Below, piece by piece: positions 2,025-60,439 of a stretch of 64,000 nucleotides of DNA (position 1 is the stretch's first letter; each line of letters begins with the position of its first letter). Below the pieces are notes generated by a model. The model ran no database searches and was not told the DNA's origin. It was given only the letters and a program-made list of their open reading frames with translations. A program made the position numbers and the translations under genes. The stretch is from assembly GCA_963662235.1 (NCBI GenBank), contig OY759308.1:1398109-1462108 (forward strand), in the 5' to 3' direction. The DNA comes from Desulfobacterales bacterium (GTDB lineage: Bacteria > Desulfobacterota > Desulfobacteria > Desulfobacterales > G963662235).

Positions 2025-2026
2025 GG

Positions 2027-5750: not shown

Positions 5751-5888
5751 CAACGATTGCGACCATTATTCCCACCACCCCCCTGTAGAGACGCAAGATT
5801 TTGCGTCTCTGTAAGATTTTGCGTCTCTATAAGATTTTGTATTTTTGCGACATTTTGCTTTTTGCAGTATTGCATCTATCAATGGTAT
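5751..5888 (-). pseudogene. Internal fragment of a second RAYT copy
   Basis: Nucleotide-level homology to 150-290. The minus strand reads ...KIQNLIETQNLTETQNLASLQGGGGNNGRNR* compared with KIQNIAETQNLIETQNLASLQGEKNNGRETIS in the 1..571 copy. The frame is broken upstream and no HUH or Tyr regions are present. Confidence 0.6.
5786..5846. repeat. REP cluster (one full palindrome, one half unit and one degenerate half unit)
   Basis: The sequence is tagagacgcaagattttgcgtctct gtaagattttgcgtctcta taagattttgtattttt. Confidence 0.85.
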
Positions 5889-9606: not shown

Positions 9607-9647
9607 AAACGCAAAATTTTGCAGAGACGCAAAATCTTGCGTCTCTA
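9606..9647. repeat. REP (degenerate half unit plus full palindrome AGAGACGCAAAATCTTGCGTCTCT at 9623..9646)
   Basis: The sequence is aaaacgcaaaattttgc agagacgcaaaatcttgcgtctcta. Confidence 0.85.
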
Positions 9648-9674
9648 CAAATTTTATATTAAATAAAAAAAATT

Positions 9675-10756: not shown

Positions 10757-10844
10757 ACTAAGTGGTTTTTTCTTTTGTTGAAATGCAACGTGAATACTCA
10801 ATATATATAATGTAATGTTGATATAGAATGTACATAATACAATG

Positions 10845-10884
10845 TAGAGACGCAAAATCTTGTGTCTCTACGGCGTCTCTACGG
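10845..10884. repeat. REP palindrome (TAGAGACGCAAAATCTTGTGTCTCTA) plus an extra right half (cggcgtctctacgg)
   Basis: Last copy of this family in the window. Confidence 0.85.
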
Positions 10885-12083: not shown

Positions 12084-12458
12084 TTAATTGCTTACAATCT
12101 TAATTTTTCCCTCTTTATCTAAAGAGTAGGTGTTTTTTCCTTTGGGATGTTTGAATGTTATTGTGCTTTCAACATCTCCACTTTCTGCTTTGTAAATAAA
12201 AGAACCCTGTATAGTTGTAGAGACAGTTAAATCTGCAGGTAAGTTACTTGCGTTATATGTTATATCTTTCTCGCCCTCTGCACTCGAAATTGCCATAAGG
12301 TAGAAGTTTTTAGCATCTGCCATAGCCACAGCATCGTAACCTTTTTTTTTGTAGGAAATGTAGTTAGGTATGGCAACGAGAGATAGAATACCTATTATAG
12401 CAACAACAATCATAAGCTCTATTAATGTAAACCCTGAATTTTGTTTGCTTCTTATCAT
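12084..12458 (-). CDS. Type IV pilin-like protein (prepilin N-terminal methylation domain)
   Basis: MIRSKQNSG|FTLIELMIVVAIIGILSLVAIPNY with GGAG located 8 nt upstream. The track start at 12497 is a GTG inside the repeat terminus, so I trimmed it. Confidence 0.85.
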   Translation of the reverse strand: MIRSKQNSGFTLIELMIVVAIIGILSLVAIPNYISYKKKGYDAVAMADAKNFYLMAISSAEGEKDITYNASNLPADLTVSTTIQGSFIYKAESGDVESTITFKHPKGKNTYSLDKEGKIKIVSN

Positions 12459-12486
12459 TTTTTTATCTCCATAAAAACTTGTTAAA

Positions 12487-12688
12487 GAGCTTTGCACATA
12501 GCCCTATTTTTGCTTTGGTTTTATGGTGAAGTAGTATGTTTAATACGTCGAACCCAAAACAAAAGAGAGCGTAAGTCTTTATAAGGGTTTTCTTAGGTTT
12601 TTCGCCTTTCGGCGAACCCCCTTAGTCCCCCTTAAAAGGGGGAAAAGGTAAAAAAATCTCACGAAAAAACATTATGAGCAAAGGTCTC
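12487..12688 (-). mobile_element. MITE-like element, copy 1 (variant with two GC-rich hairpins replacing the usual AT hairpin module)
   Basis: Termini are gagctttgcacatagc...cattatgagcaaaggtctc and the core is acgtcgaacccaaaacaaaag..agagcgtaagtctttataa. Unique hairpins are ttcgcctttcggcgaa (12601..12616) and cccccttaaaaggggg (12627..12642). Confidence 0.85.
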
Positions 12689-12758
12689 AAATGTATAAAC
12701 CTTAAACATTATAGTTTATATTGAGTGCTTATATAAGCTATTTTTTAAGAGAATATAA

Positions 12759-25232: not shown

Positions 25233-25568
25233 GAAGACTTTTGCATATAATGTTTTGAGACCTTTGCACATAGCTTTATTTTGCTTTTGTTTTGTGGTTC
25301 ACCCTGTGAAATATTTTTAAATTTTTCAAATTTAAAAATAATATTTGAGCTATAAAGCATCAAATATTATTTCACTGGGGTAAAGTAGTATTTTTATACG
25401 TCGAACCCAAAACAAAAATGAAAGAGAGCGTAAGTCTTTATAAGAGTTTTAGAAGTTTTTGTAAAAACTACCAAAAGTTAATGTTTTACTAAAAACCACT
25501 ATTTTTTTCATAAAAAACATTATGTGCAAAGGTCTCTGTTTTTTATAAAAAATATGTGTAGAGGTCTT
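25233..25568 (+). mobile_element. Composite: short-form MITE (outer, + orientation) interrupted by a long-form copy
   Basis: The outer ends are gaagacttttgcatataatgtttt (left) and ttataaaaaatatgtgtagaggtctt (right). Joining them reconstitutes a short-form element. Confidence 0.75.
25257..25536 (-). mobile_element. MITE-like element, copy 2 (long form, 280 bp) nested in the outer short form
   Basis: Full terminal inverted repeats, flanked by TGTTTT on both sides (25251..25256 and 25537..25542). Carries the 84-bp sub-insertion at 25299..25382. Confidence 0.9.
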
Positions 25569-38800: not shown

Positions 38801-38838
38801 AAAAAAGGGAGACTTTTTGGAAAAGCCTCCCTTTTTTA
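38801..38838. terminator. Bidirectional rho-independent terminator
   Basis: AAAAAAA-GGGAGAC-tttttggaaaa-GCCTCCC-TTTTTT between convergent genes. A second small hairpin, aacgaatatttgttcgtt, follows. Confidence 0.6.
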
Positions 38839-39157: not shown

Positions 39158-39580
39158 CTAAATGTTGCTTTTGGTAACATTGGCATCTGGTTTAGGTGAA
39201 GCTGTTATTTTGTTAAGTTGGTTTGATTTTTCAATAATATCACCTTTTTCTACAACGCGAACTTCTGAATTTACTACCCCACCCTCTTCAATGCTTATTT
39301 GTCTACATATAACTTTACCAGAGCAAGAGCCTTCGGATAAAATTTTAAACAAATTATCAGCTTTAATAGAGCCTTCAAATTGTCCATTTATAAGTATAGT
39401 TTCAGTTTCTATGTCAGCAAAAACTTTACCTTCTTTAGCGATAGTAATTTTTTTAGCTTTGATATCTCCCTTAACATTGCCTCTTATTAAAAGATTAGAT
39501 TCTTTCCCTAAAATATTTCCTTCAATGCTGACATTTTCATTGATGATTGATAGATTTTCTTCCTGATTGTTTGTTGCCAT
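39158..39580 (-). CDS. Bactofilin (DUF583 polymer-forming cytoskeletal protein)
   Basis: Beta-helical repeat pattern IEGNILGKESNLLIRGNVKGDIKAKKITIAKEGKVFADIETETILINGQFEGSIKA. The ATG at 39580 has GAGG located 13 nt upstream. The track start at 39622 lies in a repeat hairpin. Confidence 0.85.
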   Translation of the reverse strand: MATNNQEENLSIINENVSIEGNILGKESNLLIRGNVKGDIKAKKITIAKEGKVFADIETETILINGQFEGSIKADNLFKILSEGSCSGKVICRQISIEEGGVVNSEVRVVEKGDIIEKSNQLNKITASPKPDANVTKSNI

Positions 39581-39600
39581 AATATAAAAAACCTCATTTA

Positions 39601-39629
39601 AGACTTTTACATATTTATGCAAATGTCTC
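39601..39629. repeat. Mini hairpin resembling the joined MITE termini
   Basis: agacttttacatat/ttatgcaaatgtct has arms related to gagacctttgcacat. Confidence 0.4.
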
Positions 39630-39630
39630 T

Positions 39631-40380
39631 TTATCTAATTTTAATTAATGTAGAAAAAAGATTTCTTTTATAATAATCTTTTCCCGTTAAAACCTTATTG
39701 CCTACTACATATTTATAAGAAATTTGTTTTTTACTTTTTTTAGGTAGAATAGAAAGAATAAAAACTTTTACTGCAATAATATTTTTTATACTTATGGGTT
39801 TAAAAAGAGACGAAGTGTTTGATGAGTTATACTCATTTGCTATATTTTCATCAATATTAATGATTTCTATATCAAGCATTCCATCATTATCAGAATCGTA
39901 TGCCCAAATAATTTTGTTGCTACTACCTTTTTCTATATAAGCATATGCAAAAGATATAGATTGAATATTTTCTGCAATAGGCATTAAGTTTCCTTTGCCT
40001 TTTTTTCTTCCTATTACTCCTAAATTTTCATCCGCTATTCCATCTTGATTGGCATCATATTTTTTAGCAAAACCATAGCCAACCATCTCATCAGACGATA
40101 TTTTTCCATCTTCATCTAAATCATAGGAAATTTCTAATGAGGAGTGGCAAGCTTTTGTTATACCAATGTTTTCTCTTTCAAGAGGATTACAATTTGCTCT
40201 TTTGATGTCTCGTTCTATTGTATGGAAAAAAATGCGTACACCACTGCGTTCTTTAATTTTTAAATTGATATTTTTTTCTACATTTCTTTGAACAAAAAAA
40301 AACGAATAACTTAAAGATATAATTATAAAACCAATACTTAAGCTAACTAAAACTTCTATTATTGTGTAACCTTTGCACAT
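39631..40380 (-). CDS. PilW-like minor (pseudo)pilin with three EF-hand-like Ca-binding loops
   Basis: Prepilin N-terminus MCKG|YTIIEVLVSLSIGFIII. Loops are DLDEDGKISSDE (canonical 12-residue EF loop), DANQDGIAD and DSDNDGMLD. Confidence 0.75.
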   Translation of the reverse strand: MCKGYTIIEVLVSLSIGFIIISLSYSFFFVQRNVEKNINLKIKERSGVRIFFHTIERDIKRANCNPLERENIGITKACHSSLEISYDLDEDGKISSDEMVGYGFAKKYDANQDGIADENLGVIGRKKGKGNLMPIAENIQSISFAYAYIEKGSSNKIIWAYDSDNDGMLDIEIINIDENIANEYNSSNTSSLFKPISIKNIIAVKVFILSILPKKSKKQISYKYVVGNKVLTGKDYYKRNLFSTLIKIR

Positions 40381-40410
40381 AATATTGTTTATGAAAAAAT
40401 AGTATTTTTA
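40368..40410 (+). repeat. Solo left end of the MITE family
   Basis: aacctttgcacataatattgtttatgaaaaaatagtattttt matches the consensus gagacctttgcacataatgttttttatgaaaaaatagtggttttt. It supplies the ATG-TGC-AAA-GG start of the PilW-like gene. Confidence 0.75.
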
Positions 40411-40413
40411 AAA

Positions 40414-40911
40414 TTATTCCCATATACCGGCAGTATTGTTCCATTTTCTTAAAACAATATTACCATTTATAGAGTTTGTGCCTACTGAATAGGTTGAGCC
40501 TATACGATTGCTTAAATAGACGTAACCTAAATTTTTTGCAGTTCCATAAGAGGTAAAAGTTGCGGTATTATTTGAATAACTTACATAATCGTCTGGGAAA
40601 TTTTTACTGTTTGTAACAGAAACAGTTGCTTTACCATATCCAAAGAAGACATAAAAATCTTTTAAATTTATCGTTTTATTTAGAATTTCGTACTGATTTT
40701 TTTTTACATTAAAAACAACAGAAATTGTTTTGTTATTTTTTATCGCTTCTGCTCTTGCTTTGTGAAGATTAAAAAACAGCTCTTTCGCTGCTGAACTTAA
40801 TTTGTAATTTAAAGAGATTGTTTTAAAGAAAGGGAAGGAGATGTGTAAAAATATAGAAAGTATAGATACTACAATTATGAGCTCAAAGATAGAGAACGCT
40901 TTTGTTATTAT
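40414..40911 (-). CDS. GspH/FimT-like pseudopilin ORF lacking any ATG, GTG or TTG
   Basis: Not in the ORF track. The frame is open for 180 codons from the TGA at 40956..40954 to the TAA at 40416..40414. It reads ...KKEKIITKA|FSIFELIIVVSILSIFL...YKLSSAAKELFFNLHKARAEAIKNNKTISVVF... The 5' limit shown assumes an ATA start (40911..40909). Confidence 0.6.
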   Translation of the reverse strand: MITKAFSIFELIIVVSILSIFLHISFPFFKTISLNYKLSSAAKELFFNLHKARAEAIKNNKTISVVFNVKKNQYEILNKTINLKDFYVFFGYGKATVSVTNSKNFPDDYVSYSNNTATFTSYGTAKNLGYVYLSNRIGSTYSVGTNSINGNIVLRKWNNTAGIWE

Positions 40912-43274
40912 TTTTTCTTTTTTGAATATTCGTAATCTCCATAAAGAGGTTTGTCATTTTTATAGGTTCCTTTATATAAGGTACCATCTGCCCAAAAAAA
41001 AGTACCCTTCCCCTCTTTTTTACCGTTTTTAAAATAACCTTCGTATCTATTTCTATTAGACCAAGTATATATTCCAAAACCATCAATTGCGTTTTGTGAA
41101 AAATCGCCATCATATTTATCGCCATTTTTAAAAAGCATTGTTCCTTTTCCATGACGTTTGAAATTTTTAAACGTACCTTGATACTCAATGCCGTTTGTAT
41201 ATTTCATTAAACCAAAACCTTCTAATATCCCATTTTTAAAAGAACCTTGATATTTATCTCCATTAGAAAAGATTAAAATAGCGTTACGATCTTCTTTTTT
41301 ATTATTTACGAAAATACCTTTATAATATTTGAAAATGCTATTTTCGTATTTACAAAAACCCTCTCCGTCTAAAAGTCCATTCTTAAAATAGCCCTTGCAA
41401 AAATAAGAACCTGATAGAGACATTGAACCTTGTCCCATAATCTTATCATTACTAAAGTTTCCTTTATAAAGTTTACCATTTTTGAATTTTAATTCTCCAT
41501 ATCCTTCTTTTTTACCTTTTTTAAAAGAACCTTCATAGACACTACCATTTTGTGTTTTGTAAACACCTTGTCCATCCATATATCCATTTTCCCAGTGTCC
41601 GCTATATGTTTCGCCTGTAGAAGTTGTTAAAAGACCTTCTCCATGCCTTTTGCCATTTCTAAAGTCCCCTTCATATTTTGCCCCATTGATATATAGATAG
41701 GTTCCTACACCATTTGGTAGGTCATTTTTCCAGTGACCATTATATTTAGAACCATTATTGTAAATTATTACACCTAAACCATCTCGCTTATCGTTTTTCC
41801 ACTTACCTTTATATAAACTGCCGTCAGGATAGAAATATGAACCTTCTCCCTCTTTTTTATTATTTTTATACTCTCCTGTATATTTACTACCATCTACATA
41901 AACATATGTTCCAGCACCTGTTAGTTTACCAGCTTCATATCCACCTTTATAATAGCTACCATCTGCAAAGAAAAACTCTCCTTTGCCATCGTGTAAGCCT
42001 TTTTTAAATGTACCTTTATATTTACTACCATCGGCATAATTATATACTCCAGCACCTGTTAGTTTCCCAGCCTTATATCCACCTTTATAATAGCTACCAT
42101 CTGCAAAGAAAAACTCTCCTTTACCATCTTGTACACCTTGTTTAAATGAGCCTTTATATTTACTACCATCAGGAAAATAAAAAGTTCCAAGTCCATCAAA
42201 TTTATCATCTTTGAATGTGCCTTCATATTTACACCCATTTCCAAGAATCAAGGTGCCATAACCATTTTTTTTATCATAAATATAGTTGCCTACATATTTA
42301 CTTCCATTTGACCATATATAAGTTCCTTGTCCAGATTTTTGACCGTTTTTATAGTTTCCTTCAAAAGAGTTACCATTGCCAAAATTCATCTTCCAAATTC
42401 CAGCTCTTTTATCGCTTACATAATCTCCTTCATAATGTTTATCACTTGAATCGCTTTTTAAAACCCAGAACCCCTCTTTTAAACCATTTTTGTATTTGCC
42501 TTTTTCAGTACTGTTGTCATAATTTTTTATAGTCCACTTACCTTCTCTTTTATCGTTTTTATAATGGCCTTTATGCACAGAGCTATTTTTAGGGTAAAAA
42601 ACTACAAATTCGCCATGCTTTTTACCATCTACATATTCACCCTTATAAGTTGTCTTTTGACTATCAATAAAAACACCAGGACCATTTCTAAAACCATTTT
42701 CAAATTGTCCTGTAAACTTTGAGCCATTTTTAAACGTTATTATTCCTTTACCATGTTTTAAATCGTTGCTCCATTCGCCTTCATATGTACTTTTATCTTG
42801 CTTAATATATTTTCCAAAACCCTCTCGTTTATTGTCTTTCCAGTCGCCACTATATTTGCTTCCATCACTCCAAGTATATGTTCCTTTCCCATTCCTTAAA
42901 TCGTTTTTCCATTCTCCGTCATATTTACTACCATCTGGCCAAGTGCATTCCCCTTTCCCATCTCTTAAATTGTATTTCCAATTACCAGAATATTTAAAAC
43001 CATCTTTTTTTGAATAGACTCCAAATCCTTCCTTTTTATTATATTTCCAATTGCCTTTATATTTGCTTCCATCTGGCCAAACACAAAGACCTTCGCCATG
43101 TTTGTCCCCAATTTTTAAATTACCTTTATATCTCCCTTTTCCATTAAAGGTATAAACACTATAGCCATTCTTGCAATCTCCAGTTATGCACCTGTCCATT
43201 AACTCTGGTTGCAAACAGGAATTTAAAAAAAATAAAGTGCTAAAAAGTAGTAATATAGAAAGTTTTTTTGTCAT
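40908..43274 (-). CDS. MORN-repeat lipoprotein (about 33 MORN units)
   Basis: Lipoprotein signal MTKKLSILLLFSTLFFLNSC, followed by continuous YxGxWxxxxxxGxG repeats. Start trimmed to the ATG at 43274. Confidence 0.85.
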   Translation of the reverse strand: MTKKLSILLLFSTLFFLNSCLQPELMDRCITGDCKNGYSVYTFNGKGRYKGNLKIGDKHGEGLCVWPDGSKYKGNWKYNKKEGFGVYSKKDGFKYSGNWKYNLRDGKGECTWPDGSKYDGEWKNDLRNGKGTYTWSDGSKYSGDWKDNKREGFGKYIKQDKSTYEGEWSNDLKHGKGIITFKNGSKFTGQFENGFRNGPGVFIDSQKTTYKGEYVDGKKHGEFVVFYPKNSSVHKGHYKNDKREGKWTIKNYDNSTEKGKYKNGLKEGFWVLKSDSSDKHYEGDYVSDKRAGIWKMNFGNGNSFEGNYKNGQKSGQGTYIWSNGSKYVGNYIYDKKNGYGTLILGNGCKYEGTFKDDKFDGLGTFYFPDGSKYKGSFKQGVQDGKGEFFFADGSYYKGGYKAGKLTGAGVYNYADGSKYKGTFKKGLHDGKGEFFFADGSYYKGGYEAGKLTGAGTYVYVDGSKYTGEYKNNKKEGEGSYFYPDGSLYKGKWKNDKRDGLGVIIYNNGSKYNGHWKNDLPNGVGTYLYINGAKYEGDFRNGKRHGEGLLTTSTGETYSGHWENGYMDGQGVYKTQNGSVYEGSFKKGKKEGYGELKFKNGKLYKGNFSNDKIMGQGSMSLSGSYFCKGYFKNGLLDGEGFCKYENSIFKYYKGIFVNNKKEDRNAILIFSNGDKYQGSFKNGILEGFGLMKYTNGIEYQGTFKNFKRHGKGTMLFKNGDKYDGDFSQNAIDGFGIYTWSNRNRYEGYFKNGKKEGKGTFFWADGTLYKGTYKNDKPLYGDYEYSKKKK
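40917..40923 (-). promoter_or_regulatory. Candidate -1 frameshift heptamer A_AAA_AAG (dnaX type)
   Basis: In the MORN frame the sequence is TCA AAA AAG AAA AAA TAA. A -1 slip enters the pseudopilin frame (AAA AAA GAA AAA ATA ATA ACA AAA GCG TTC). Confidence 0.25.
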
Positions 43275-43308
43275 AATTTTTTCACTAAAAATTAAGTGTT
43301 TTAATGTT

Positions 43309-45114
43309 TTAACTGTTTTGTTTTCTCTTATTATAAATAAAAAAACCAATAAAAAACAGTATAATTGGAATAAATGTCATATTTACTATTGTTAATATTT
43401 TACCTAATAAATCTATATCTTGTCTCAATTTTTTTCTGATTTCACGTCTTTGACGTTTGAAATTTATCTCTTTTTCTTTAAATTCTAAAATCTTTTTTTC
43501 TTGTTCTGGTGATAATATTGTTGTTTTGCCGTCTTTCTCTTTTCTTGTCGCTTCAAGTTTATTTAGCTCTTCATTAAGTCTCGATATTTTTGTTGTAAGT
43601 TCTCTATCCAAAACCAACCATTTTTCTTGAGCTTTTTTTTCAAGTTCGACTACTTTATCAAAAGGTCTTAAATATTTTCCTCGCATTCTGATTTTAATTA
43701 AATCTGTATCACCATCTAAGAATTTTAAACAGTTTATAAGAAAAGTAATATTTTGATTAACTTGTCTTACAATTCTATTACCTAAAAAATCAAATACTCT
43801 TATGGCATAAAGGTTATTTAAAAAATCTATATCTCCCATAATAAAAACAGAATTATTTTTTTTAGATTCTTTAATGTGTTTTTTCATATATAAAGAGTCT
43901 TTAGGTTTTTGCTCAAAAGCGGACTTGAATTGCCCTGTTACAATTCCTGCAAGTGAATAAGTTTTATTTTCCTTATTAAAGTTTTCAATCTCTGTAAAAG
44001 GCATAAAGTTCATCTTTTTGCTGTCGATAAAACCTGCTTTATTTTTTGTGTTTATTAAAGATATATAGTCGTTTTTAGCTACGTTCTCAAAATAACTGCT
44101 CTCTATTAATAGCATATCTTGAAAGTTTTTAGAGATGAAGTTGTTTTGGTTAAAATTTTTTTCATCTAATGATAACCAAAAAGGGTATCTAACAGTAAAT
44201 CCATCTCTTGTAGAAACACTTGCTGCAGAATTCATATCAGCTACTACTTTATCATTGTGATATTTAATGCCTATCGTTTTAAAAACAGATTCAGGGTTAG
44301 ATGATGTGGCTATCGCAAGCTGTCTCGCCATATTTTTTTCTATAGATGTTCTTGCCGAAGAATCGACAAGAATTGCAGTCTTTCCGCCGTTTAAAATGTA
44401 TTGATCTATAGCATATTCTGTCTCTTCAATAAGTTCAGGAGGATGTAAAAGCATAAGTAACGAAATGTTTTGTGGAATCTCTTCTATATCTTCTGCAAGA
44501 AACTCGATATCAAATAGTTTTTCTATTTCGCTTATAAAAAGCCATTCATTTTGAACTTCACGAATATTTTTTAATGGAAGAGATGTTATTATGCCAATTT
44601 TACTTTTTTCCTTAGACCTTTGGACTTGAGTAAGCATATTGGTAATTTCAAATTCAAGAGAGTTCTCATCTCTAATATCAAAAAAAGGTATTGAAAAAGT
44701 CTTGTCCCCACAAATAGCAACTGCACCAATATAAAAAGGGGTAGAGACCCCTGCTGAAATTTGCTTTATTCCGTATCTTGTAGCATTAAGCTCTTCTTCT
44801 GTATCTGGAAGAGGATCGTGTATTTCAAAACTGATAAGATTATTGTATTCAAGATACTCTTTTAAAAACTCTTCTACCCTCTTCCCATAATTTTTTATAA
44901 CTGTAGATAAAGTATCATTAGAAGCTGAAAAGTAATATTTTATAGTTATTTTCTTATCTATTTTTTTTATAATGTTTTTGGATTCATTAGATAAAGTAAA
45001 GAGGTTATCTTTTGTAAGGTCTATTTTAAAAAAAATCTTACCTGCAATAAAATTAACTATAAATAAAAAGAGAAATAGAAATAAAACTTTTAGTGGCAAC
45101 TTAATTGATTTCAT
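43309..45114 (-). CDS. GldG-like ABC-transporter auxiliary protein (ABC_transp_aux)
   Basis: N- and C-terminal TM anchors, a large periplasmic domain, a coiled-coil segment, and position after an ABC-2 permease. Confidence 0.7.
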   Translation of the reverse strand: MKSIKLPLKVLFLFLFLFIVNFIAGKIFFKIDLTKDNLFTLSNESKNIIKKIDKKITIKYYFSASNDTLSTVIKNYGKRVEEFLKEYLEYNNLISFEIHDPLPDTEEELNATRYGIKQISAGVSTPFYIGAVAICGDKTFSIPFFDIRDENSLEFEITNMLTQVQRSKEKSKIGIITSLPLKNIREVQNEWLFISEIEKLFDIEFLAEDIEEIPQNISLLMLLHPPELIEETEYAIDQYILNGGKTAILVDSSARTSIEKNMARQLAIATSSNPESVFKTIGIKYHNDKVVADMNSAASVSTRDGFTVRYPFWLSLDEKNFNQNNFISKNFQDMLLIESSYFENVAKNDYISLINTKNKAGFIDSKKMNFMPFTEIENFNKENKTYSLAGIVTGQFKSAFEQKPKDSLYMKKHIKESKKNNSVFIMGDIDFLNNLYAIRVFDFLGNRIVRQVNQNITFLINCLKFLDGDTDLIKIRMRGKYLRPFDKVVELEKKAQEKWLVLDRELTTKISRLNEELNKLEATRKEKDGKTTILSPEQEKKILEFKEKEINFKRQRREIRKKLRQDIDLLGKILTIVNMTFIPIILFFIGFFIYNKRKQNS

Positions 45115-45156
45115 AATTTTTAAAATTTATTTTTATAAGAACTTTTCTCAAAATTC

Positions 45157-45894
45157 TCATTTTTCTTTATTTAGTGTTAATATATTTAAACTTAAAAATA
45201 GAACTATTATAGAAAAAAAGTATATTAAGTCTCTTGAATCTATTATACCTTTTATTCCTCTTTGAAAATGCGTTACAAAAGATAAGTTTGCGATAAACTC
45301 ATAAAAATTAATGGGTAAAAAAGTAAAGTAGTGTTTAAATGTATCAAACCCTAAAAAAACGAAAATAAAACATATTAAAATAGAAAAGACAAAGCTTACA
45401 ATTTGATTTTGTGTAACAGAGCTTGCAAACAAACTTATAGACAAATATGCCCCTGCCATAATCCAAGACATAAGATATCCGCTAAATATAGGACCAAAAT
45501 CTGGATTGCCAAGATAATAGAGTGTAAGAACAACAGGGAAGGTTAAAAAAATAGCTATTAAGACAAAGCACCAAAGAGCAAAAAATTTACCAAGTGTAAT
45601 CTCATAAAGCGAAACAGGAAGAGTTCTTAATATTTCGTATGTGCCACTTCTTTTTTCTTCTGCCCAAACTTTCATACCTAAAGCTGGAAGTAAAAAAAGA
45701 TATAACCAAGGATGAAAATAAAAAAACAAATCTAAACTCGATTGACCAGTTGAATAGAATTTACCTATCACAAAAGTAAAAATGGCTTGAAGGATTAAAA
45801 AAATAATTAGGAAAATTAAAGAGGAGAGTGAAAAAATATAACCTTTAAATTCTTTCTTAAAAATCACAAATACTGAAGTTAAAAAACTATTCAT
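45157..45894 (-). CDS. ABC-2 type transporter permease (GldF-like)
   Basis: Six predicted TM helices in the typical ABC-2 layout. No ATPase gene is adjacent. Confidence 0.75.
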   Translation of the reverse strand: MNSFLTSVFVIFKKEFKGYIFSLSSLIFLIIFLILQAIFTFVIGKFYSTGQSSLDLFFYFHPWLYLFLLPALGMKVWAEEKRSGTYEILRTLPVSLYEITLGKFFALWCFVLIAIFLTFPVVLTLYYLGNPDFGPIFSGYLMSWIMAGAYLSISLFASSVTQNQIVSFVFSILICFIFVFLGFDTFKHYFTFLPINFYEFIANLSFVTHFQRGIKGIIDSRDLIYFFSIIVLFLSLNILTLNKEK

Positions 45895-45920
45895 TTCAAT
45901 ACCTTAAAATATTAATCTTT

Positions 45921-46101
45921 GAGACCTTTACACATAGCTTAATTTTGCTTTTGTATTTTTATACTTCGAACCCAAAACAAAAGTAAAAGAAAGCGTAAGT
46001 CTTTATAATGGTTGTACAAGTTTTTGTAAAATTATCAAAAGTTAGTATTTTACAAAAAAAATCACTATTTTTTAATAAAAAACATTATGTGTAGAGGTCT
46101 C
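45921..46101 (-). mobile_element. MITE-like element, copy 5
   Basis: Termini gagacctttacacatagc...cattatgtgtagaggtctc. It overlaps the last 9 codons of thiE. Confidence 0.85.
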
Positions 46102-47145
46102 ATTTAGTAAATTATAGATTTTGTTTATTTTACTTTGTATATCTTTTGCACCTACAATTTCGGTTATCATAGCAAAACATTTTGCACCTCTTTTCTTTGT
46201 CTCCAAAATGTTATGCTCTTTTATCCCACCTATTGCAACAAAAGGTATTTTTATGTTTTTTACTACATAATCTAAATATTTTAGCCCAACAGGATCTATA
46301 ACATCCTTTTTTGTTTTGGTTTTAAATATAGGTCCAACACCTATATAATCGGCTCCTTCTTTCACTGCTCTATCTGCTTCTTTCGGAGAATGGGTGGAAA
46401 CACCAATAATCATATTATCGCCAACAAGTTTTCTAACTTCTTTTATAGGTATATCTTCTTGACCTATATGAACTCCATCAGCACCAACTAAAATTGCAAG
46501 GTCAATATCGTCATTCATAATAAAAAGAGCGTCATATTTATTACAAAGAGCTTTTATTTTTTTCGCTTGTTCATATTTATAAAGCATCTTTTTTTCTTTT
46601 TCTCGGTATTGAAAAACTTTTACACCAGCTTTTAATATCTCTTCTGCAACATAAACATTATCTCTCATACAAGAAAACTCTTCACCTGATATAGCATAAA
46701 TACCTGTTATTTTTTTCTTTTTTGCATCAAGAGACTTAAAAATAGTAACTTCCTTTTCGATATTATAAACATCAAATCTAAGCTCTTCGTACAATTTAGA
46801 AAGTTTATGAAGTTTTTCAATTTTTAAATTTTCTTCTATACACCTTAAAGCTTCCTCAACTCTTTTGAAGTTTGCATAGATAAGCTCATTAATATTGTTC
46901 TTTTTGTCTAAACCCTCTTTTTTATTAGAATTTTTCAAGCCTACATCAAAAAGAGATGAGCGTTTTGTTAAAAATTTTTCATTAAAATTCTTTAGACTTT
47001 TTCTTATTTTATGCCTTAGAAGACGCAGTTCATTACTGATATTTTCATCTTCATAAATAAAACGGAAAATATCTTCTATAACTCTTATACCTTCAGATGC
47101 TCTGTTGAGATTAGCATCTAAAATTCTAAAACTATCGTTTAACAT
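46072..47145 (-). CDS. thiE: Thiamine-phosphate synthase with about 150-aa N-terminal extra domain
   Basis: The C-terminal TMP-TENI domain has FQYREK, ALFIMNDDIDLA, GADGVHIGQED and VAIGGI. The alternative start at 47175 (MCKGLK) lies inside the MITE. Confidence 0.85.
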   Translation of the reverse strand: MLNDSFRILDANLNRASEGIRVIEDIFRFIYEDENISNELRLLRHKIRKSLKNFNEKFLTKRSSLFDVGLKNSNKKEGLDKKNNINELIYANFKRVEEALRCIEENLKIEKLHKLSKLYEELRFDVYNIEKEVTIFKSLDAKKKKITGIYAISGEEFSCMRDNVYVAEEILKAGVKVFQYREKEKKMLYKYEQAKKIKALCNKYDALFIMNDDIDLAILVGADGVHIGQEDIPIKEVRKLVGDNMIIGVSTHSPKEADRAVKEGADYIGVGPIFKTKTKKDVIDPVGLKYLDYVVKNIKIPFVAIGGIKEHNILETKKRGAKCFAMITEIVGAKDIQSKINKIYNLLNETSTHNVFY

Positions 47146-47160
47146 ATTATATATTATTTT

Positions 47161-47440
47161 GAGACCTTTGCACATAGCTTAAATTTTGCTTTTGTTTTGT
47201 GGTTCACCCTGTGAAATATTTTTAAATTTTTCAAATTTAAAAATAATATTTGAGCTGTAAAGCATCAAATATTATTTCACTGGGGTAAAGTAGTATTCTT
47301 ATACGTCGAACCCAAAACAAAAGTGAAAGAGAGCGTAAGTCTTTATAGGGGTTTTAGAGGTTTTTTTAAAAATTACCAAAAGTTAATATTTTTTCAAAAC
47401 CACTATTTTTTTCATAAAAAATATTATGTGCAAAGGTCTC
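47161..47440 (-). mobile_element. MITE-like element, copy 6 (long form, 280 bp)
   Basis: Near-identical to copy 2 and includes the 84-bp sub-insertion (47204..47287). TATTTT occurs on both flanks (47155..47160 and 47441..47446). Confidence 0.9.
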
Positions 47441-47446
47441 TATTTT

Positions 47447-48259
47447 TTATACCGTTCCATAACTATGAAGACTCGGTAAATAGTTAACGCCAAAATATGT
47501 GAAAAGAACTGCTAAAAAGCCAATGATAGAGATATAAGCAAGCTTTCTACCACGCCAACTTTTTACAAGTCTTGCATGGATTAAAATTGCATAAATAAAC
47601 CAAGTTATAAGAGACCATGTCTCTTTTGGATCCCATGACCAATAACTGCCCCAAGCAGAATTTGCCCAAACAGAGCCTGTCATAATTCCTATAGTCAAAA
47701 ATAAAAAACCCAAAACTACCATTTGATAGTTAATTTCATCCAGTTCATTTAATTTAAGGTTTAAATAGTTAATTCGAACCAAATAGATAATACTAATTAC
47801 AAAGGATAGTGCAAAACCAGCATAACCTAAAAAACAAGTTATAACATGTATTGTAAGCCAATTGCTTTTTAAAGCTGGAATTAGAGGAGTTATTTTAGTG
47901 TTGATGTCAGGAGATAGAGAAGAATAAGCTATAGTTATAAAAGCTATTATACTAGCAAAAGCACTTATAAAATAGTTTTTATATTTAATTTCTAAAAAAA
48001 TATATACTAAAGCTATACATAAAGTAAAAAAGACTAAAGATTCGTATAAATTTGTAAGAGGGATTCTACCTATTCCTAATTTATATGAAACTATCCATCT
48101 TACAGCAAAACCTGCAAGATTTAGGAATATAGCAAAAATAGTTATATATTTTCCTACTAAACCCAATCTCTCTTTATTAAAAATAACAGATAATATATAA
48201 AAAACAGAAGCAAAAAAATATACAAATGTAGATATTGAAATTAAAATTGAATAACTCAT
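47447..48259 (-). CDS. ccsA: Cytochrome c biogenesis protein CcsA (system II heme handling)
   Basis: W-rich motif WANSAWGSYWSWDPKETWSLITW. Confidence 0.92.
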   Translation of the reverse strand: MSYSILISISTFVYFFASVFYILSVIFNKERLGLVGKYITIFAIFLNLAGFAVRWIVSYKLGIGRIPLTNLYESLVFFTLCIALVYIFLEIKYKNYFISAFASIIAFITIAYSSLSPDINTKITPLIPALKSNWLTIHVITCFLGYAGFALSFVISIIYLVRINYLNLKLNELDEINYQMVVLGFLFLTIGIMTGSVWANSAWGSYWSWDPKETWSLITWFIYAILIHARLVKSWRGRKLAYISIIGFLAVLFTYFGVNYLPSLHSYGTV

Positions 48260-50100: not shown

Positions 50101-50937
50101 ATGCAGATTCTTTCATATGCAAAAATAAACCTCTTTTTCTATATAAAAAACAGAAGAGAAGATGGCTTCCATAATATTTTGTCTCTTATGTGCCAAATCG
50201 GGATTTATGACGAAATTTTAGTAGATTTTATAAATAGGGAAAAAATAGAGATTGATTGTGATGACAAAAGTGTACCGGATAATGAAGGAAATATAGTATA
50301 TAAAGCTATAACTCTTTTTGCAGAAAAAAACAAAAAAGATATTTCTTGTAAGGTTCAAATTAAAAAAAATATTCCTATAGGTGCAGGACTTGGAGGCGGT
50401 AGCTCAAACGCAGCCGCTATTCTTCTGCTCCTTAATGACTATTATAAAAAACCTTTCTCTACAAAAGAACTTATGGAGATTGGCAAACAAATAGGTGCCG
50501 ATGTGCCATTTTTTATATTTAAAAAAAACGCAATTGCTGAAGGGATAGGAGATAAACTTAAAAGATACAAAGTCAAACCTTACAATATAATAGTCGCTTA
50601 TCCAAACATCAATATATCTACAAAAACAATTTATAAAAAGGTCAATTTGGAATTGACAAACAATAAAAAAAAACTTAGTGGAGAAAGTTTTTATAAAGAC
50701 AGATGTGTTTTAGATTTAGTTTCAAATGACTTTGAATCTATAGTTTTTAAAATGCATCCTGAAGTTCAGGAATTGAAAAAATATTTTTTAAAAAAAGAGG
50801 CAGATGCCTCTCTTATGTCTGGAAGTGGCTCTTCAGTTTTTGCTATTTTCAATGATATAAAAAAAGCACAAAACACATTGTCAGATTTAAAAAACAAAAC
50901 TAATTATAAGGTTTTTTTAACTACTATATTAGATTGA
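50101..50937 (+). CDS. ispE: 4-diphosphocytidyl-2-C-methyl-D-erythritol kinase
   Basis: GHMP kinase motif PIGAGLGGGSSNAAA, with AKINLFF at the N-terminus. The stop TGA overlaps the first bases of a MITE. Confidence 0.92.
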   Translation: MQILSYAKINLFFYIKNRREDGFHNILSLMCQIGIYDEILVDFINREKIEIDCDDKSVPDNEGNIVYKAITLFAEKNKKDISCKVQIKKNIPIGAGLGGGSSNAAAILLLLNDYYKKPFSTKELMEIGKQIGADVPFFIFKKNAIAEGIGDKLKRYKVKPYNIIVAYPNINISTKTIYKKVNLELTNNKKKLSGESFYKDRCVLDLVSNDFESIVFKMHPEVQELKKYFLKKEADASLMSGSGSSVFAIFNDIKKAQNTLSDLKNKTNYKVFLTTILD

Positions 50938-51129
50938 GACCTTTGCACATAATGCTTTTTATAAAAAAATAGTGGTTTTTAGTAAAATATTAACTTTTGA
51001 TAATTTTACAAAAACTTCTAAAACCCTTATAAAGATTACGCTCTCTTTTACTTTTGTTTTGGGTTCGACGTATAAAAATACTACTTCACCACAAAACAAA
51101 AGCAAAATAAAGCTATGCACAAAGGTCTC
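50936..51129 (+). mobile_element. MITE-like element, copy 7
   Basis: gagacctttgcacataatg...aaagctatgcacaaaggtctc, with both internal hairpins present. Confidence 0.9.
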
Positions 51130-51165
51130 AAAAGTTTTACTATAACACAAAAAAAAATAAATTGC

Positions 51166-51237
51166 TGGGGCGTCGTCAAGCGGTAAGACACAGGATTTTG
51201 GTTCCTGCATTCAGAGGTTCGAATCCTCTCGCCCCAG
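51166..51237 (+). tRNA. tRNA-Gln (anticodon TTG)
   Basis: Manual fold: acceptor TGGGGCG/CGCCCCA, D arm GTCA-AGCGGTAA-GACA, anticodon arm CAGGA-TTTTGGT-TCCTG, T arm AGAGG-TTCGAAT-CCTCT, discriminator G. No encoded CCA. Confidence 0.93.
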
Positions 51238-51260
51238 CCTTTTTTTTATTATGCAAGAAA

Positions 51261-52208
51261 ATGCAACAAAAAGATTTTAAAATTTTCAAAGGTAATTCCA
51301 ACGACGAATTGGTTAAAAAGATAGCCAAAAGTCTAAATAAAAAAATCAGCAAAGCAAATATATCAAAGTTTAGTGATGGTGAAGTGCGTGTTGAAATAGA
51401 TGAAAATGTAAGACTGAAAGAAGTTTTTATAATTCAATCTATTTGTTCTCCTGTAAATACGAACTTAATGGAACTTCTTATTATGGCAGATGCTCTTAAA
51501 AGATCAGCCCCTGCAAGTATAACAGCAGTAATTCCATATTTTGGATATGCAAGACAAGACAAAAAAGTAAGACCTCGAGTACCTATAACAGCAAAACTTG
51601 TTGCTGATATTATAACAAAAGCAGGTGTTTCAAAAGTTATTACAGTCGATTTGCATGCAGGACAAATTCAAGGTTTTTTTGATATACCAGTAGATAATAT
51701 ATTTGCAGCTCCTATATTGCTTCCTTTTTTAAAAAAAAGTTTTGATATGGAAAATACCGTATTGATATCGCCAGATGCTGGCGGAGTTGAAAGAACAAGA
51801 GCTATAGCTAAAAGACTTAATGCAAAACTCGCTATAGTGAATAAAAGACGTTCTGCTCCTAATCAAGCTACCGCTATGGAAATAATAGGCGATGTTAAAA
51901 ATAAAACAACTATCTTGCTTGATGATATGGTAGATACAGCAGGAACTTTAACAAGTGCAGCAAATATTATCAAAAAAGAGGGTGCAAAGGAAGTATATGC
52001 TTGTTGTACCCATGGCGTATTGTCAGGAGATGCAATAAAAAAAATAGAAAAATCTCACATAAAATCTTTAATTGTAACTGACACAGTACCTTTAAGGGAA
52101 GAAGCAAAAAAATCGGGTAAAGTAAAAGTTTTAACAATTAGTTCTCTAATTGGGAAAGCAATAAAATATAGTAGGTTAGGTAAATCTGTACATAAACTGT
52201 TTGTTTAA
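51261..52208 (+). CDS. prs: Ribose-phosphate pyrophosphokinase
   Basis: FSDGEVRVEI, GYARQDKK, DLHAGQIQGFF and DDMVDTAGT. The track ORF start (51162) overlaps the tRNA, so I trimmed to the in-frame ATG at 51261. Confidence 0.93.
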   Translation: MQQKDFKIFKGNSNDELVKKIAKSLNKKISKANISKFSDGEVRVEIDENVRLKEVFIIQSICSPVNTNLMELLIMADALKRSAPASITAVIPYFGYARQDKKVRPRVPITAKLVADIITKAGVSKVITVDLHAGQIQGFFDIPVDNIFAAPILLPFLKKSFDMENTVLISPDAGGVERTRAIAKRLNAKLAIVNKRRSAPNQATAMEIIGDVKNKTTILLDDMVDTAGTLTSAANIIKKEGAKEVYACCTHGVLSGDAIKKIEKSHIKSLIVTDTVPLREEAKKSGKVKVLTISSLIGKAIKYSRLGKSVHKLFV

Positions 52209-52212
52209 AAAC

Positions 52213-52409
52213 GAGACCTTTGCACATAATGTTTTTTATGAAAAAATAGCGGTTTTTTTGTAAAATATTAACTTTTAAGAATTTCTCAAAAACTTGCAAA
52301 ACACTTATAAAGACTTACGCTCTCTTTTACTTTTGTTTTGGGTTTGACGTATAAAAATACTACTGCACCACAAAACAAAAGCAAAATTTGAGCTATGTGC
52401 AAAGGTCTT
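52213..52409 (+). mobile_element. MITE-like element, copy 8
   Basis: Full termini, with AAAAAC on both flanks (52207..52212 and 52410..52415). Confidence 0.9.
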
Positions 52410-52457
52410 AAAAACGATAAATTTTTATATTTTTTTTAAAAAAAATTAGGAGGCATT

Positions 52458-53217: not shown

Positions 53218-53379
53218 AGGTCTTTGTTCATAGCTCTCATTAATACGTCAAATCCAAAACAAAAGCAAAAGAGAGCGTAAATCTTTATAATGGTTTTTGA
53301 AGTTTTTGTAAAATTACCAAAAGTTAATATTTTTTCAAAACACTATTTTTTTATAAAAAACATTATGTGCAAAGGTCTT
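53218..53379 (-). mobile_element. MITE-like element, copy 9 (shorter, left terminus degenerate)
   Basis: aggtctttgttcatagc...acgtcaaatccaaaacaaaag...cattatgtgcaaaggtctt. Confidence 0.8.
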
Positions 53380-53390
53380 ACTTTTATCTA

Positions 53391-53957
53391 ATGCATCCTT
53401 TCATAATAGCAGGTCTTGGTAATCCAGGAAATCAATATGAAAAAACTCGCCACAATATAGGTTTTCAATCAATAGACTTTATAGCCTCTTTTTTATCTGT
53501 TGAGTTTTCAAATAGTAAATTCAAAAGCAATTATGCCAAAGCACAAATAGAGGGGGAAAAAGTAATATTAGTAAAACCTATGTCGTATATGAACAATAGC
53601 GGGGAACCTATACAAAAATTTATTAATTTTTTTTCCGTCAATATAGAAAACTTAATAATAATACACGACGACCTTGATCTACCATTCGGTACTATAAAAA
53701 TTAAAAAAGGTGGTGGTAGTGCAGGACATAACGGTATAAAATCGATTATCAATCATCTAAATAATAACAATTTTATAAGAGTTCGTTTTGGGATAGGAAA
53801 ACCTGATAATATTAACTTTGAAACAAGTAATTATGTCCTTTCTAAATTTAGCAACGAAGAGAATAAAAGCTTAGAAAACGAGATAGATAAAATCAGAAGA
53901 ATTGTCTTTACTATAATAGATAAAGGAGCTGATTTTGCTATGAATGAGTTTAACTAA
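53391..53957 (+). CDS. pth: Peptidyl-tRNA hydrolase
   Basis: IIAGLGNPGNQYEKTRHNIGF...HDDLDLPFGTIKIKKGGGSAGHNG. The track GTG start at 53367 is inside the MITE terminus. Confidence 0.93.
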   Translation: MHPFIIAGLGNPGNQYEKTRHNIGFQSIDFIASFLSVEFSNSKFKSNYAKAQIEGEKVILVKPMSYMNNSGEPIQKFINFFSVNIENLIIIHDDLDLPFGTIKIKKGGGSAGHNGIKSIINHLNNNNFIRVRFGIGKPDNINFETSNYVLSKFSNEENKSLENEIDKIRRIVFTIIDKGADFAMNEFN

Positions 53958-59994: not shown

Positions 59995-60065
59995 AAATAA
60001 AATCCATTTAGAGCTTGATAATATAGTTACCTAAAAAGCTCTATCCTCTCTATTAATAAGTTTTT

Positions 60066-60261
60066 GAGACCTTTGCACATAATATTTTTTATGAAAAAAA
60101 TAGTGGTTTTTTGTAAATTATCAACTTTTGGCAATTTCACAAAAACAGCTAAAACCCTTATGAAGACTAACGCTCTCTTTTGCTTTTGTTTTGGGTTCGA
60201 CGTATAAAAATACTACTTCACCACAAAACAAAAGCAAAATAAAGCTATGTGCAAAGGTCTC
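60066..60261 (+). mobile_element. MITE-like element, copy 10
   Basis: Perfect termini gagacctttgcacataat...agctatgtgcaaaggtctc. GTTTTT occurs on both flanks (60060..60065 and 60262..60267). Confidence 0.92.
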
Positions 60262-60439
60262 GTTTTTTTATATATAAAATTTTCTAAACATAATGCAACA
60301 TTGTAGAATCAAGTGTGTAGTATCCACAATAAAAAATAATATTGCTTTTAAAAAGCTACGAAGTGTAAATTATAATTAATTTTAGTACAAGACAAAATCT
60401 ATACTCACTTTATAAAAGTTTTAATAAGGGAAAAAAATA

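What the first reader, a model, noticed from the sequence alone, without database searches (positions are those of the whole stretch)
39158..45894. Unusual six-gene block: ABC-2 permease, GldG-like, giant MORN lipoprotein, two pseudopilins and bactofilin
Seen in sequence:
- All six genes are on the minus strand with gaps of 50 nt or less, or with overlaps.
- The block is bounded upstream by a MITE (45921) and downstream by a bidirectional terminator (38801).
- No ABC ATPase gene accompanies the permease and GldG pair.
- No pilus assembly genes (pilB/C/M-Q) or major pilin are in the block.

Established knowledge: GldF/GldG-type ABC-2 sets belong to gliding and envelope transporters. MORN repeats bind membranes or lipids. 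Bactofilins form polar scaffolds and in Myxococcus help position type IV pilus motors.

Inference: this may be a cell-envelope or polar surface-appendage module that links a cytoskeletal scaffold to pseudopilins and a lipoprotein. I do not know a described system with this composition.
Basis: partly seen in the sequence, partly recalled or inferred. Interest (0 to 1): 0.6.

Follow-up and report, generated by a model that had tools for sequence, protein, structure and literature searches.

The report
Rearranged transporter, pilin and bactofilin cluster
The six genes are real and tightly packed, but relatives conserve only transporter permease, GldG-like protein, MORN-repeat protein and (in one relative) two minor pilins, so this is an unusual variant of a common, still uncharacterised envelope transporter cluster, with the bactofilin a recent neighbour.

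Summary
Six minus-strand genes lie 0-50 nt apart: a GldF-like ABC-2 permease, a GldG-like protein, a 788-aa MORN-repeat protein, a GspH/FimU-like and a PilW-like minor pilin, and a bactofilin. A MITE lies upstream and a strong bidirectional terminator downstream. No partner ABC ATPase lies in the 64 kb.

Two details need correcting. The lipobox is atypical and absent from orthologues. The first pilin gene has no ATG, GTG or TTG start.

The single-module reading is only partly supported:
- In 78 of 80 GldG loci from other bacteria the order is ATPase-permease-GldG, and DUF4340 follows in 66 of 72. None has MORN, pilins or bactofilin.
- In the window's rare low-GC clade, MORN takes the DUF4340 position in all three lineages.
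- The two pilins follow MORN in two of the three lineages.
- The only close bactofilin homologue follows an unrelated gene, and a MITE-end remnant marks the pilW-bactofilin junction.
- In one relative, an 8-kb restriction-modification/toxin-antitoxin (RM/TA) island separates the ATPase gene from the permease gene.

All six genes are under purifying selection between two strains.

Verdict: a clade-specific variant of the GldFG-type cluster, with a cut-down minor-pilin operon attached. The bactofilin is most likely incidental. Function is inferred, not shown. Interest is moderate.

The parts
45898..46120 (.). MITE copy between thiE and the permease gene. It has terminal inverted repeats GAGACCTTTGCACATAG / its reverse complement.
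   Evidence: 8 copies in the window; the RNA fold has z = -3.8.
45157..45894 (-). GldF-like ABC-2 permease, 245 aa, with about 5-6 hydrophobic segments.
   Evidence: PF12679; best NCBIfam hit is GldF, 171 bits against a cut-off of 288.5; hydropathy; dN/dS 0.02 against strain L009.
43309..45114 (-). GldG-like auxiliary protein, 601 aa. It has an N-terminal and a C-terminal TM helix, two GIFT-type alpha/beta domains and a long helical stalk.
   Evidence: PF09822 plus PF23357; pLDDT 79.5; nearest folds are OST Wbp1 and the IFT52 N-terminal domain, E about 1e-7; dN/dS 0.12.
40908..43274 (-). Secreted MORN-repeat protein, 788 aa. It has a signal peptide, a conserved CxxGxC motif and at least 19 MORN repeats. 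It sits where DUF4340 sits in the canonical cluster.
   Evidence: the L002 orthologue is 44% identical; the L006 orthologue is about 50% identical; no DUF4340 nearby; dN/dS 0.06.
40414..40911 (-). GspH/FimU-like minor pilin, about 165 aa. The mature N-terminus is FSIFELIIVV with Glu5. It has no canonical start codon. ATA ATA overlaps the MORN stop TAA TAA, and the gene is in the -1 frame relative to MORN.
   Evidence: the L006 orthologue starts with ATG, and a gap of about 31 alignment columns in the window lineage spans it; dN/dS 0.29, binomial p = 0.017.
40357..40409 (.). MITE-end remnant in the pilH-pilW gap. It supplies the pilW start codon and the leader MCKG.
   Evidence: family D12; 40365-40382 matches with 3 mismatches..
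39631..40380 (-). PilW-like minor pilin, 249 aa. The leader is MCKG|YTIIE. It has an EF-hand-type loop DLDEDGKISSDE and the invariant motif FAKKYDANxDGIAD.
   Evidence: Its roughly 30%-identical relatives lie in canonical GspH-PilW-PilV-PilX-PilY1 operons; dN/dS 0.13.
39613..39630 (.). Degenerate MITE-end-like sequence (GAGACATTTGCATAAAT) directly after the pilW stop. L006 has a true MITE end at the same position.
   Evidence: alignment; sequence.
39158..39580 (-). Bactofilin, 140 aa.
   Evidence: PF04519, 73.9 bits.; no nonsynonymous change against L009.
38801..38837 (.). Bidirectional intrinsic terminator between the convergent bactofilin and PIG-L genes.
   Evidence: 17 pairs, an A-run upstream and a T-run downstream.

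Best explanation
The block is a composite, probably co-transcribed gene string. Rearrangement in a MITE-rich, low-GC genome built it from three parts.

**1. Conserved core: a derived GldFG-type ABC-2 transporter set.**
- The permease and the bitopic GldG-like protein are retained.
- The usual fourth gene, DUF4340, has been replaced in this clade by a secreted, elongated MORN-repeat protein.
- The GldA-like ATPase gene has been moved elsewhere in the genome and presumably acts in trans.

**2. Attached to MORN in two of three lineages: a cut-down type IV pilus minor-pilin operon.**
- Only the FimU/GspH-like and PilW-like genes remain.
- Their nearest outgroup relatives sit in full FimU-PilW-PilV-PilX-PilY1 operons.

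**3. The bactofilin gene is a recent neighbour.**
- A MITE-associated deletion or rearrangement most likely brought it in.
- It probably has no dedicated role with the other five genes.

**Likely working (inferred, not shown).**
- The permease and a trans-encoded ATPase drive export or handling of an envelope glycoconjugate or lipid.
- The GldG GIFT-type scaffold and the MORN protein act as periplasmic accessory parts.
- The two minor pilins serve the cell's type IV pilus, whose PilA-like major pilin lies 27 kb away. They may or may not physically contact MORN.
For: **Canonical context**
- 78 of 80 GldG loci from other bacteria have ATPase-permease-GldG.
- DUF4340 is the next gene in 66 of 72.
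- L003 and L004 show the same four genes.

**Clade-specific swap**
- MORN directly follows GldG in the window/L009, L002 and L006.
- A DUF4340 HMM finds nothing in the window or these loci, while positive controls score E 5e-63 and 3e-38.
- Only permease-GldG-MORN is shared between the window and L002. Their flanks are unrelated.

**ATPase displacement**
- In L002 a GldA-like ATPase (263 bits to TIGR03522) lies 8.2 kb upstream, behind an RM/TA island.

**Pilins**
- L006 has MORN-pilH-pilW with a 6-nt gap and then an overlap.
- Outgroup loci are canonical minor-pilin operons ending in PilY1.

**Bactofilin**
- The only close homologue follows a different gene.
- A TIR-like remnant lies at the junction.

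**Function retained**
- dN/dS is 0.00-0.29 for all six genes against L009.

**GldG fold**
- It is the OST-Wbp1/IFT52 GIFT type.
Against: - Only three lineages of one rare clade are available, so the conserved adjacency could still be inherited and not selected.
- The L006 contig ends 48 nt after pilW, so absence of the bactofilin there rests on L090. L090 comes from a sister sample and is assumed to be the same population.
- The ATPase was not found, because the rest of the genome could not be searched.
- No expression data exist.
- pilH lacks a canonical start codon and may be poorly expressed.
- The tight spacing and the single strong terminator fit the bactofilin being co-transcribed. That leaves room for a functional tie in this species.
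Confidence: 0.55

Rival explanations
1. One reading: all six proteins form one dedicated envelope or polar-appendage machine. The bactofilin positions a pseudopilin and MORN structure that is coupled to the ABC-2/GldG pair.
For: - All six genes are on one strand, with gaps of 50 nt or less and one terminator.
- All six are under purifying selection.
- The arrangement is identical in strain L009.
- Four of the six genes are syntenic in L006.
Against: - The bactofilin homologue in L090 is not next to pilW.
- A MITE-end remnant lies at the pilW-bactofilin junction.
- L002 lacks the pilins.
- No such combination occurs in 80 GldG loci or 19 PilW loci.
- L009 is only about 2% diverged, so its synteny says little.
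Confidence: 0.1
2. Pure juxtaposition: three or four functionally unrelated units (an ABC-2/GldG remnant, a MORN protein, two T4P minor pilins and a bactofilin) share a strand in a compact, heavily rearranged genome. The adjacency seen in relatives is only inherited.
For: - MITE copies or remnants sit at three junctions.
- The 5' ends of both pilin genes have been remodelled.
- In L002 the gaps around GldG are loose, at 142 and 309 nt.
- No outgroup links these families.
Against: - GldG-MORN adjacency survives in all three lineages at about 50% protein identity, while everything around it differs.
- MORN occupies exactly the DUF4340 slot.
- The L006 junctions are 5-6 nt or overlapping.
Confidence: 0.25
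3. A decaying locus: with the ATPase gone and the pilH start codon lost, the transporter and pilin genes are non-functional remnants.
For: - No ATPase lies in the 64 kb.
- pilH lacks ATG, GTG and TTG in both strains.
- PilV, PilX and PilY1 are missing.
Against: - dN/dS is 0.02 for the permease, 0.12 for GldG and 0.29 for pilH. The pilH value is significantly below neutral, p = 0.017.
- All reading frames are intact in an AT-rich genome where stop codons arise easily.
Confidence: 0.07

Closest known systems
Widespread four-gene cluster: GldA-like ABC ATPase, ABC-2 permease, GldG-like protein (PF09822 + DUF7088) and DUF4340. It is found in Verrucomicrobiota, Desulfobacterota, Pseudomonas and others, and its function is uncharacterised.
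   Same: The permease and GldG-like protein are clear homologues. GldG is 29-45% identical over its full length, with the same domain order and the same permease-GldG order.
   Different: The ATPase is not adjacent, and none lies within 18 kb upstream or 39 kb downstream. DUF4340 is absent, and a MORN-repeat protein unrelated in sequence takes its place. Two minor pilins and a bactofilin follow.
Flavobacterium johnsoniae GldA/GldF/GldG gliding-motility ABC transporter
   Same: The best NCBIfam hits for the permease, GldG and the L002 ATPase are GldF, GldG and GldA. The GIFT-type fold is confirmed.
   Different: All scores are far below the equivalog cut-offs: 171 against 288.5, 115 against 390, and 263 against 403. 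No other gld or T9SS genes were seen. The organism is not a Bacteroidota member, judging by the nearest genomes ('Deltaproteobacteria' MAGs).
Type IVa pilus minor-pilin operon fimU-pilV-pilW-pilX-pilY1 (the Pseudomonas/Myxococcus type)
   Same: Both pilins have a prepilin leader, a hydrophobic N-terminal helix and Glu5. They are homologous to the GspH/FimU and PilW genes of canonical operons, and they keep the same FimU-then-PilW order.
   Different: No PilV-like, PilX or PilY1 gene is adjacent. A large MORN protein lies upstream instead. The FimU-like gene has no canonical start codon. The PilW leader is derived from a MITE end.
Myxococcus xanthus bactofilin BacP / SofG polar positioning of the T4P motors PilB and PilT (from my own knowledge: Bulyha et al. 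2013)
   Same: A bactofilin and type IV pilus components occur in one organism.
   Different: In Myxococcus the link runs through a small GTPase and the cytoplasmic ATPases, not the periplasmic minor pilins, and no such genes lie here. The adjacency is not conserved in the nearest relative.

Membership tests
Canonical ATPase-permease-GldG-DUF4340 cluster | ABC-2 permease directly upstream of a GldG-like gene | tested here: met
   The gap is 42 nt.
Canonical ATPase-permease-GldG-DUF4340 cluster | GldG-like protein with DUF7088 plus ABC_transp_aux and TM helices at both ends | tested here: met
Canonical ATPase-permease-GldG-DUF4340 cluster | GldA-like ABC ATPase gene adjacent and upstream | tested here: not met
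   the only ATPase in the window is LptB-type. 78 of 80 reference loci have the ATPase adjacent.
Canonical ATPase-permease-GldG-DUF4340 cluster | DUF4340 gene directly downstream of GldG | tested here: not met
   no HMM hit in the window, L002, L006 or L009. 66 of 72 reference loci have it.
Bacteroidota GldF/GldG (NCBIfam equivalogs TIGR03518 / TIGR03521) | Score at or above the curated equivalog cut-off | tested here: not met
   171.4 against 288.5, and 115.1 against 389.85.
Type IV pilin-like (prepilin) proteins | Short basic leader, Gly or Ala at -1, a hydrophobic helix of about 20 aa, and Glu at +5 | tested here: met
   pilH reads ..ITKA|FSIFELIIVV and pilW reads MCKG|YTIIEVLV. pilW reaches N_methyl at 21.3 bits against 21.2.
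GspH/FimU minor pilin | GspH domain (PF12019) at or above the gathering score | tested here: inconclusive
   20.5 bits against 21. It aligns to the L007 and L008 genes that carry PF12019.
PilW minor pilin | PilW domain (PF16074), or homology to PilW genes in canonical operons | tested here: met
   The Pfam score is below cut-off, 20.8 bits against 26. However, E is 5e-27 to P0044 and P0045, which carry PF16074 and lie in GspH-PilW-PilV-PilX-PilY1 operons.
Complete T4P minor-pilin/tip set | PilV-like, PilX and PilY1 genes present with FimU and PilW | tested here: not met
   They are absent from the block and from L006 and L009. The rest of the genome is not testable.
Bactofilin | PF04519 beta-helical domain | tested here: met
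   73.9 bits against 27.9.
MORN-repeat protein | Multiple PF02493 repeats | tested here: met
   19 stretches, 417 bits.; 69-nt DNA periodicity.
Bacterial lipoprotein | Lipobox [LVI][ASTVI][GAS]C at the end of the signal peptide, conserved in orthologues | tested here: inconclusive
   The window has LNSC, and Asn at -2 is atypical (rule recalled from memory). The L002 and L006 orthologues have no Cys at that position and look like signal-peptidase-I substrates.
MITE | Short (<400 nt), non-coding, with terminal inverted repeats and many dispersed intergenic copies | tested here: met
   Target-site duplications were not examined.

The most novel reading that the evidence does not exclude
In this clade the MORN-repeat protein may be a periplasm-spanning adaptor that has replaced DUF4340. 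It would physically couple a GldFG-type ABC-2 motor to a minimal FimU/PilW pseudopilin pair. That would be a new kind of envelope machine, in which an ABC transporter rather than a PilB-type ATPase is linked to pilin-like subunits, with the bactofilin as a species-specific addition.
Probability: 0.1. Interest if true: 0.75.

Novelty: new variant of a known kind. Interest (0 to 1): 0.35.

Why it matters
The ATPase-permease-GldG-DUF4340 cluster is very widespread. I found no functional study of it outside Bacteroidota gliding.

A natural variant could give a handle on what the periplasmic parts of this transporter do:
- A repeat protein replaces DUF4340.
- The cluster sits next to pilus tip subunits.
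- The ATPase gene has separated from the cluster.

The window also shows how MITEs reshape operons. One MITE end supplies a start codon and a working prepilin leader, and another marks the junction that brought in the bactofilin.

If the six genes were a single machine it would be a new envelope system, but the evidence does not favour that.

Tried and rejected
1. **-1 programmed frameshift making a MORN-pilH fusion.**
   - In favour: an in-frame A AAA AAG heptamer lies at the MORN 3' end, pilH is in the -1 frame, and pilH has no start codon.
   - Against: such heptamers are common here, 13 per 3119 codons and 3 in MORN alone. The ancestral state is two separate genes (L006). A fusion would also invert the pilin's membrane topology.
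   - Kept only as a low-probability note. Initiation or re-initiation at ATA, which overlaps the TAA TAA stop, is more likely.
2. **Finding the ATPase.** It is not in the window. The rest of the genome could not be reached with the tools and caps available.
3. **Taxonomy.** The nearest named genomes are 'Deltaproteobacteria bacterium' MAGs at 39-45% GldG identity, so the lineage remains unnamed.
4. **Solved structures by sequence.** None exist for GldG or the permease.
5. **Literature.** No paper links DUF4340, GldG, MORN, minor pilins and bactofilin.
6. **Promoter scan.** It was uninformative: 49 hits against 46 expected.
7. **L090 upstream fragment.** The 58-aa CxxC...CxxC C-terminus got no significant Pfam hit. 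From memory it resembles the tail of a radical-SAM activase. What matters here is only that it is not PilW.
8. **JGI metagenome scan with the PilW alignment.** It returned only distant canonical operons, at about 30% identity and GC 46-53%, and no further clade members.


Full report
**What is in the sequence**

The window is 29% GC. Six minus-strand ORFs fill 45894-39158. Pfam and NCBIfam identify them as follows:

| Coordinates | Product | Key evidence |
|---|---|---|
| 45157-45894 | ABC-2 permease | Best named hit GldF |
| 43309-45114 | GldG-like protein | ABC_transp_aux E 1e-45, plus DUF7088 |
| 40908-43274 | 788-aa MORN-repeat protein | 19 repeats |
| 40414-40911 | GspH/FimU-like pseudopilin | GspH 20.5 bits vs cut-off 21 |
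| 39631-40380 | PilW-like pseudopilin | N_methyl and PilW, both weak |
| 39158-39580 | Bactofilin, 140 aa | PF04519, 73.9 bits |

- The gaps are 42 nt, 34 nt, an overlap, 33 nt and 50 nt.
- The upstream element at 45898-46120 is one of eight copies of a roughly 210-330-nt MITE with 18-nt terminal inverted repeats.
- The hairpin at 38801-38837 is a strong bidirectional terminator.
- The only ABC ATPase in the 64 kb is an LptB-type gene in an lptC-lptA-lptB-rpoN cluster.

- The GspH-like gene has no ATG, GTG or TTG. Its frame opens with ATA ATA, which overlaps the MORN stop TAA TAA.
- The 'lipobox' LNSC is atypical, and the Cys is missing in both orthologues, which look like ordinary secreted proteins.
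- In addition, a PilA-like major pilin lies at 12084-12458. The organism therefore has type IV pilin genes scattered around the genome.

**What the GldG half normally looks like**

- A GldG alignment was scanned against one genome per species and returned 80 loci.
- 78 of them carry a GldA-like ATPase and the permease directly upstream.
- In 66 of 72 the next gene downstream is DUF4340.
- None has a MORN protein, a pilin or a bactofilin nearby.
- L003 and L004, the next-closest metagenomic relatives at about 40% identity, show the same four genes.
- The canonical unit is therefore ATPase-permease-GldG-DUF4340.
- I found no paper on the function of this cluster outside Bacteroidota gliding and no solved structure by sequence.
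- An AlphaFold model of the window's GldG (pLDDT 79.5, pTM 0.70) shows these features:
  - TM helices at both ends.
  - Two alpha/beta domains.
  - A long helical stalk.
- The alpha/beta domains match the OST subunit Wbp1 and the IFT52 GIFT domain. This is a non-catalytic scaffold fold that has been suggested to bind sugars (my own knowledge: Beatson and Ponting 2004).

**What close relatives show**

The clade is rare. Searches of 5.8 billion proteins gave only a handful of close hits.

| Locus | Relationship | Gene order |
|---|---|---|
| L009 | Sister strain, about 98% identical | Same six genes. Collinear down to 38880, then diverges into an integrase island |
| L002 | GldG 50% identical | ATPase, then an 8.2-kb type I RM/toxin-antitoxin island, then permease-GldG-MORN (MORN 44% identical), then tandem repeats and an IS3. 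No pilins |
| L006 | PilW 59% identical | GldG-MORN-GspH-PilW, with a 6-nt gap and an overlap at the pilin junctions. A MITE end follows, then the contig ends |

- Only the permease-GldG-MORN stretch is shared between the window and L002. Their flanks are unrelated.
- A DUF4340 profile finds nothing in any of these loci, although controls score E 5e-63 and 3e-38.
- So MORN has taken the DUF4340 slot in this clade, and that adjacency has survived while the surroundings were scrambled.

**The pilins**

- The two genes are true FimU/GspH-type and PilW-type minor pilins.
  - Both have prepilin leaders and Glu5.
  - PilW shares an invariant core, FAKKYDANxDGIAD, and an EF-hand-type loop with relatives at about 30% identity.
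- Those relatives (L007, L008 and 17 metagenome loci) lie in canonical GspH-PilW-PilV-PilX-PilY1 operons. None has MORN, GldG or bactofilin.
- The window clade therefore keeps only two genes of a five-gene operon, now placed behind MORN.
- In the window lineage both 5' ends have been rebuilt.
  - The alignment to L006 has a 31-column gap in the window lineage that spans the pilH ATG.
  - A MITE end now supplies the pilW ATG and the leader MCKG.

**The bactofilin**

- Its only close homologue (68% identity) sits on a 715-nt contig, L090, from the same site label as L006.
- It is preceded after 13 nt by the C-terminus of an unrelated CxxC...CxxC protein, not by PilW.
- In the window, the 18 nt after the pilW stop are a degenerate MITE end. 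L006 has a true MITE end at the same position.
- The simplest history is that pilW was followed by a MITE, and a MITE-associated deletion or rearrangement later placed the bactofilin there.
- This step is inferred, and it depends on L090 and L006 being the same population.

**Are the genes alive?**

dN/dS between the window and L009:

| Gene | dN/dS |
|---|---|
| Permease | 0.02 |
| GldG | 0.12 |
| MORN | 0.06 |
| pilH | 0.29 |
| pilW | 0.13 |
| Bactofilin | 0.00 |

- For pilH, 8 of 17 changes are synonymous against the 21% expected under neutrality (p = 0.017).
- All six genes are therefore still constrained.
- This argues against decay. It implies that the transporter has an ATPase somewhere and that pilH is translated despite its start.
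- A -1 frameshift from MORN at an in-frame A AAA AAG heptamer is possible on paper. However, such heptamers are common here, and a fusion would invert the pilin's topology. I favour initiation at ATA coupled to termination of MORN.

**Verdict**

- The best reading (confidence 0.55) is a clade-specific variant of the GldFG-type ABC-2 cluster.
  - MORN replaces DUF4340.
  - The ATPase gene is displaced.
  - A reduced minor-pilin pair is attached.
  - A bactofilin was added recently.
- A functional tie is plausible for GldG and MORN, possible for MORN and the pilins, and unlikely for the bactofilin.
- The mechanism is inferred: ABC-driven handling of an envelope component, with GldG and MORN as periplasmic accessories.
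- The claim that MORN repeats bind lipid should not be leaned on (PMC7725318).

Noticed in passing
window 40900-40930 (the MORN stop / pilH start junction); L009 14195-14215; L006 3100-3120: The GspH-like pilin gene has lost its ATG. The alignment to L006 has a 31-column gap in the window lineage across it. The frame now opens with ATA ATA, which overlaps the MORN stop TAA TAA. It is in the -1 frame, just after an in-frame A AAA AAG heptamer. The ORF is intact and constrained in two strains.
   Followed up: partly
window 40357-40409: About 50 nt of a MITE end lies in front of pilW and supplies its ATG and leader MCKG (ATGTGCAAAGGT is the MITE terminus). The same MITE terminus also opens the annotated thiE ORF (MCKGL..., 47175), whose true start is probably the Met 10 codons further in.
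   Followed up: partly
window 12462-12707, 25234-25555, 45898-46120, 47138-47459, 50925-51135, 52186-52415, 53240-53398, 60032-60280: A MITE family is present at very high density, about one copy per 8 kb, and all copies are intergenic. Two copies (25226 and 47130) carry an extra internal segment of about 90 nt. A related end also terminates the L006 contig.
   Followed up: partly
window 185-257, 591-656, 2105-2143, 5604-5867, 9586-9667, 10836-10874: A second repeat family is built on the palindrome GAGACGCAAAATCTTGCGTCTC. It is often tandemly reiterated and is confined to the first 11 kb of the window.
   Followed up: no
window 12084-12458 (-): A solo PilA-like type IVa major pilin (MIRSKQNSG|FTLIELMIVVAIIG...) has a MITE copy immediately upstream and no other pilus genes beside it.
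   Followed up: partly
window 41805-42218; L006 2700-3000: There are recent internal duplications of two-repeat (138-nt) MORN units. The window and L006 have duplicated different units, and orthologue lengths differ (717, 778 and 788 aa). Repeat number therefore varies between lineages.
   Followed up: no
window 39631-40380 (PilW residues about 86-97, 109-117 and 162-170): PilW has a perfect EF-hand-type loop, DLDEDGKISSDE, and two DxDxDG-like motifs, conserved in L006. The middle motif (YDANxDGIAD) is invariant even in relatives at 30% identity. This suggests calcium binding in a minor pilin, reminiscent of PilY1.
   Followed up: no
L002 1151-8238, 8329-9099, 14341-14668, 14703-15925: In the relative L002, the transporter operon is split by a type I RM / RhuM / BrnA-antitoxin island. 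It is flanked by tandem repeats of 115, 57 and 84 nt and by an IS3-family element.
   Followed up: partly
window 38880 / L009 16212 onward: Synteny between the two strains ends about 40 nt before the terminator. L009 continues into an island that carries an integrase, HTH proteins and a ParE toxin.
   Followed up: no
window 650-5360: A restriction-modification-like patch lies here: a RhuM-family protein, a YgjP-like metallopeptidase, a 625-aa HATPase_c_3 protein and a C-5 cytosine methylase.
   Followed up: no
window 51162-52208 and 51166-51237: The mechanical ORF for the PRPP-synthetase-like gene starts inside a tRNA gene (Rfam, 60 bits). The true start must lie further downstream.
   Followed up: no
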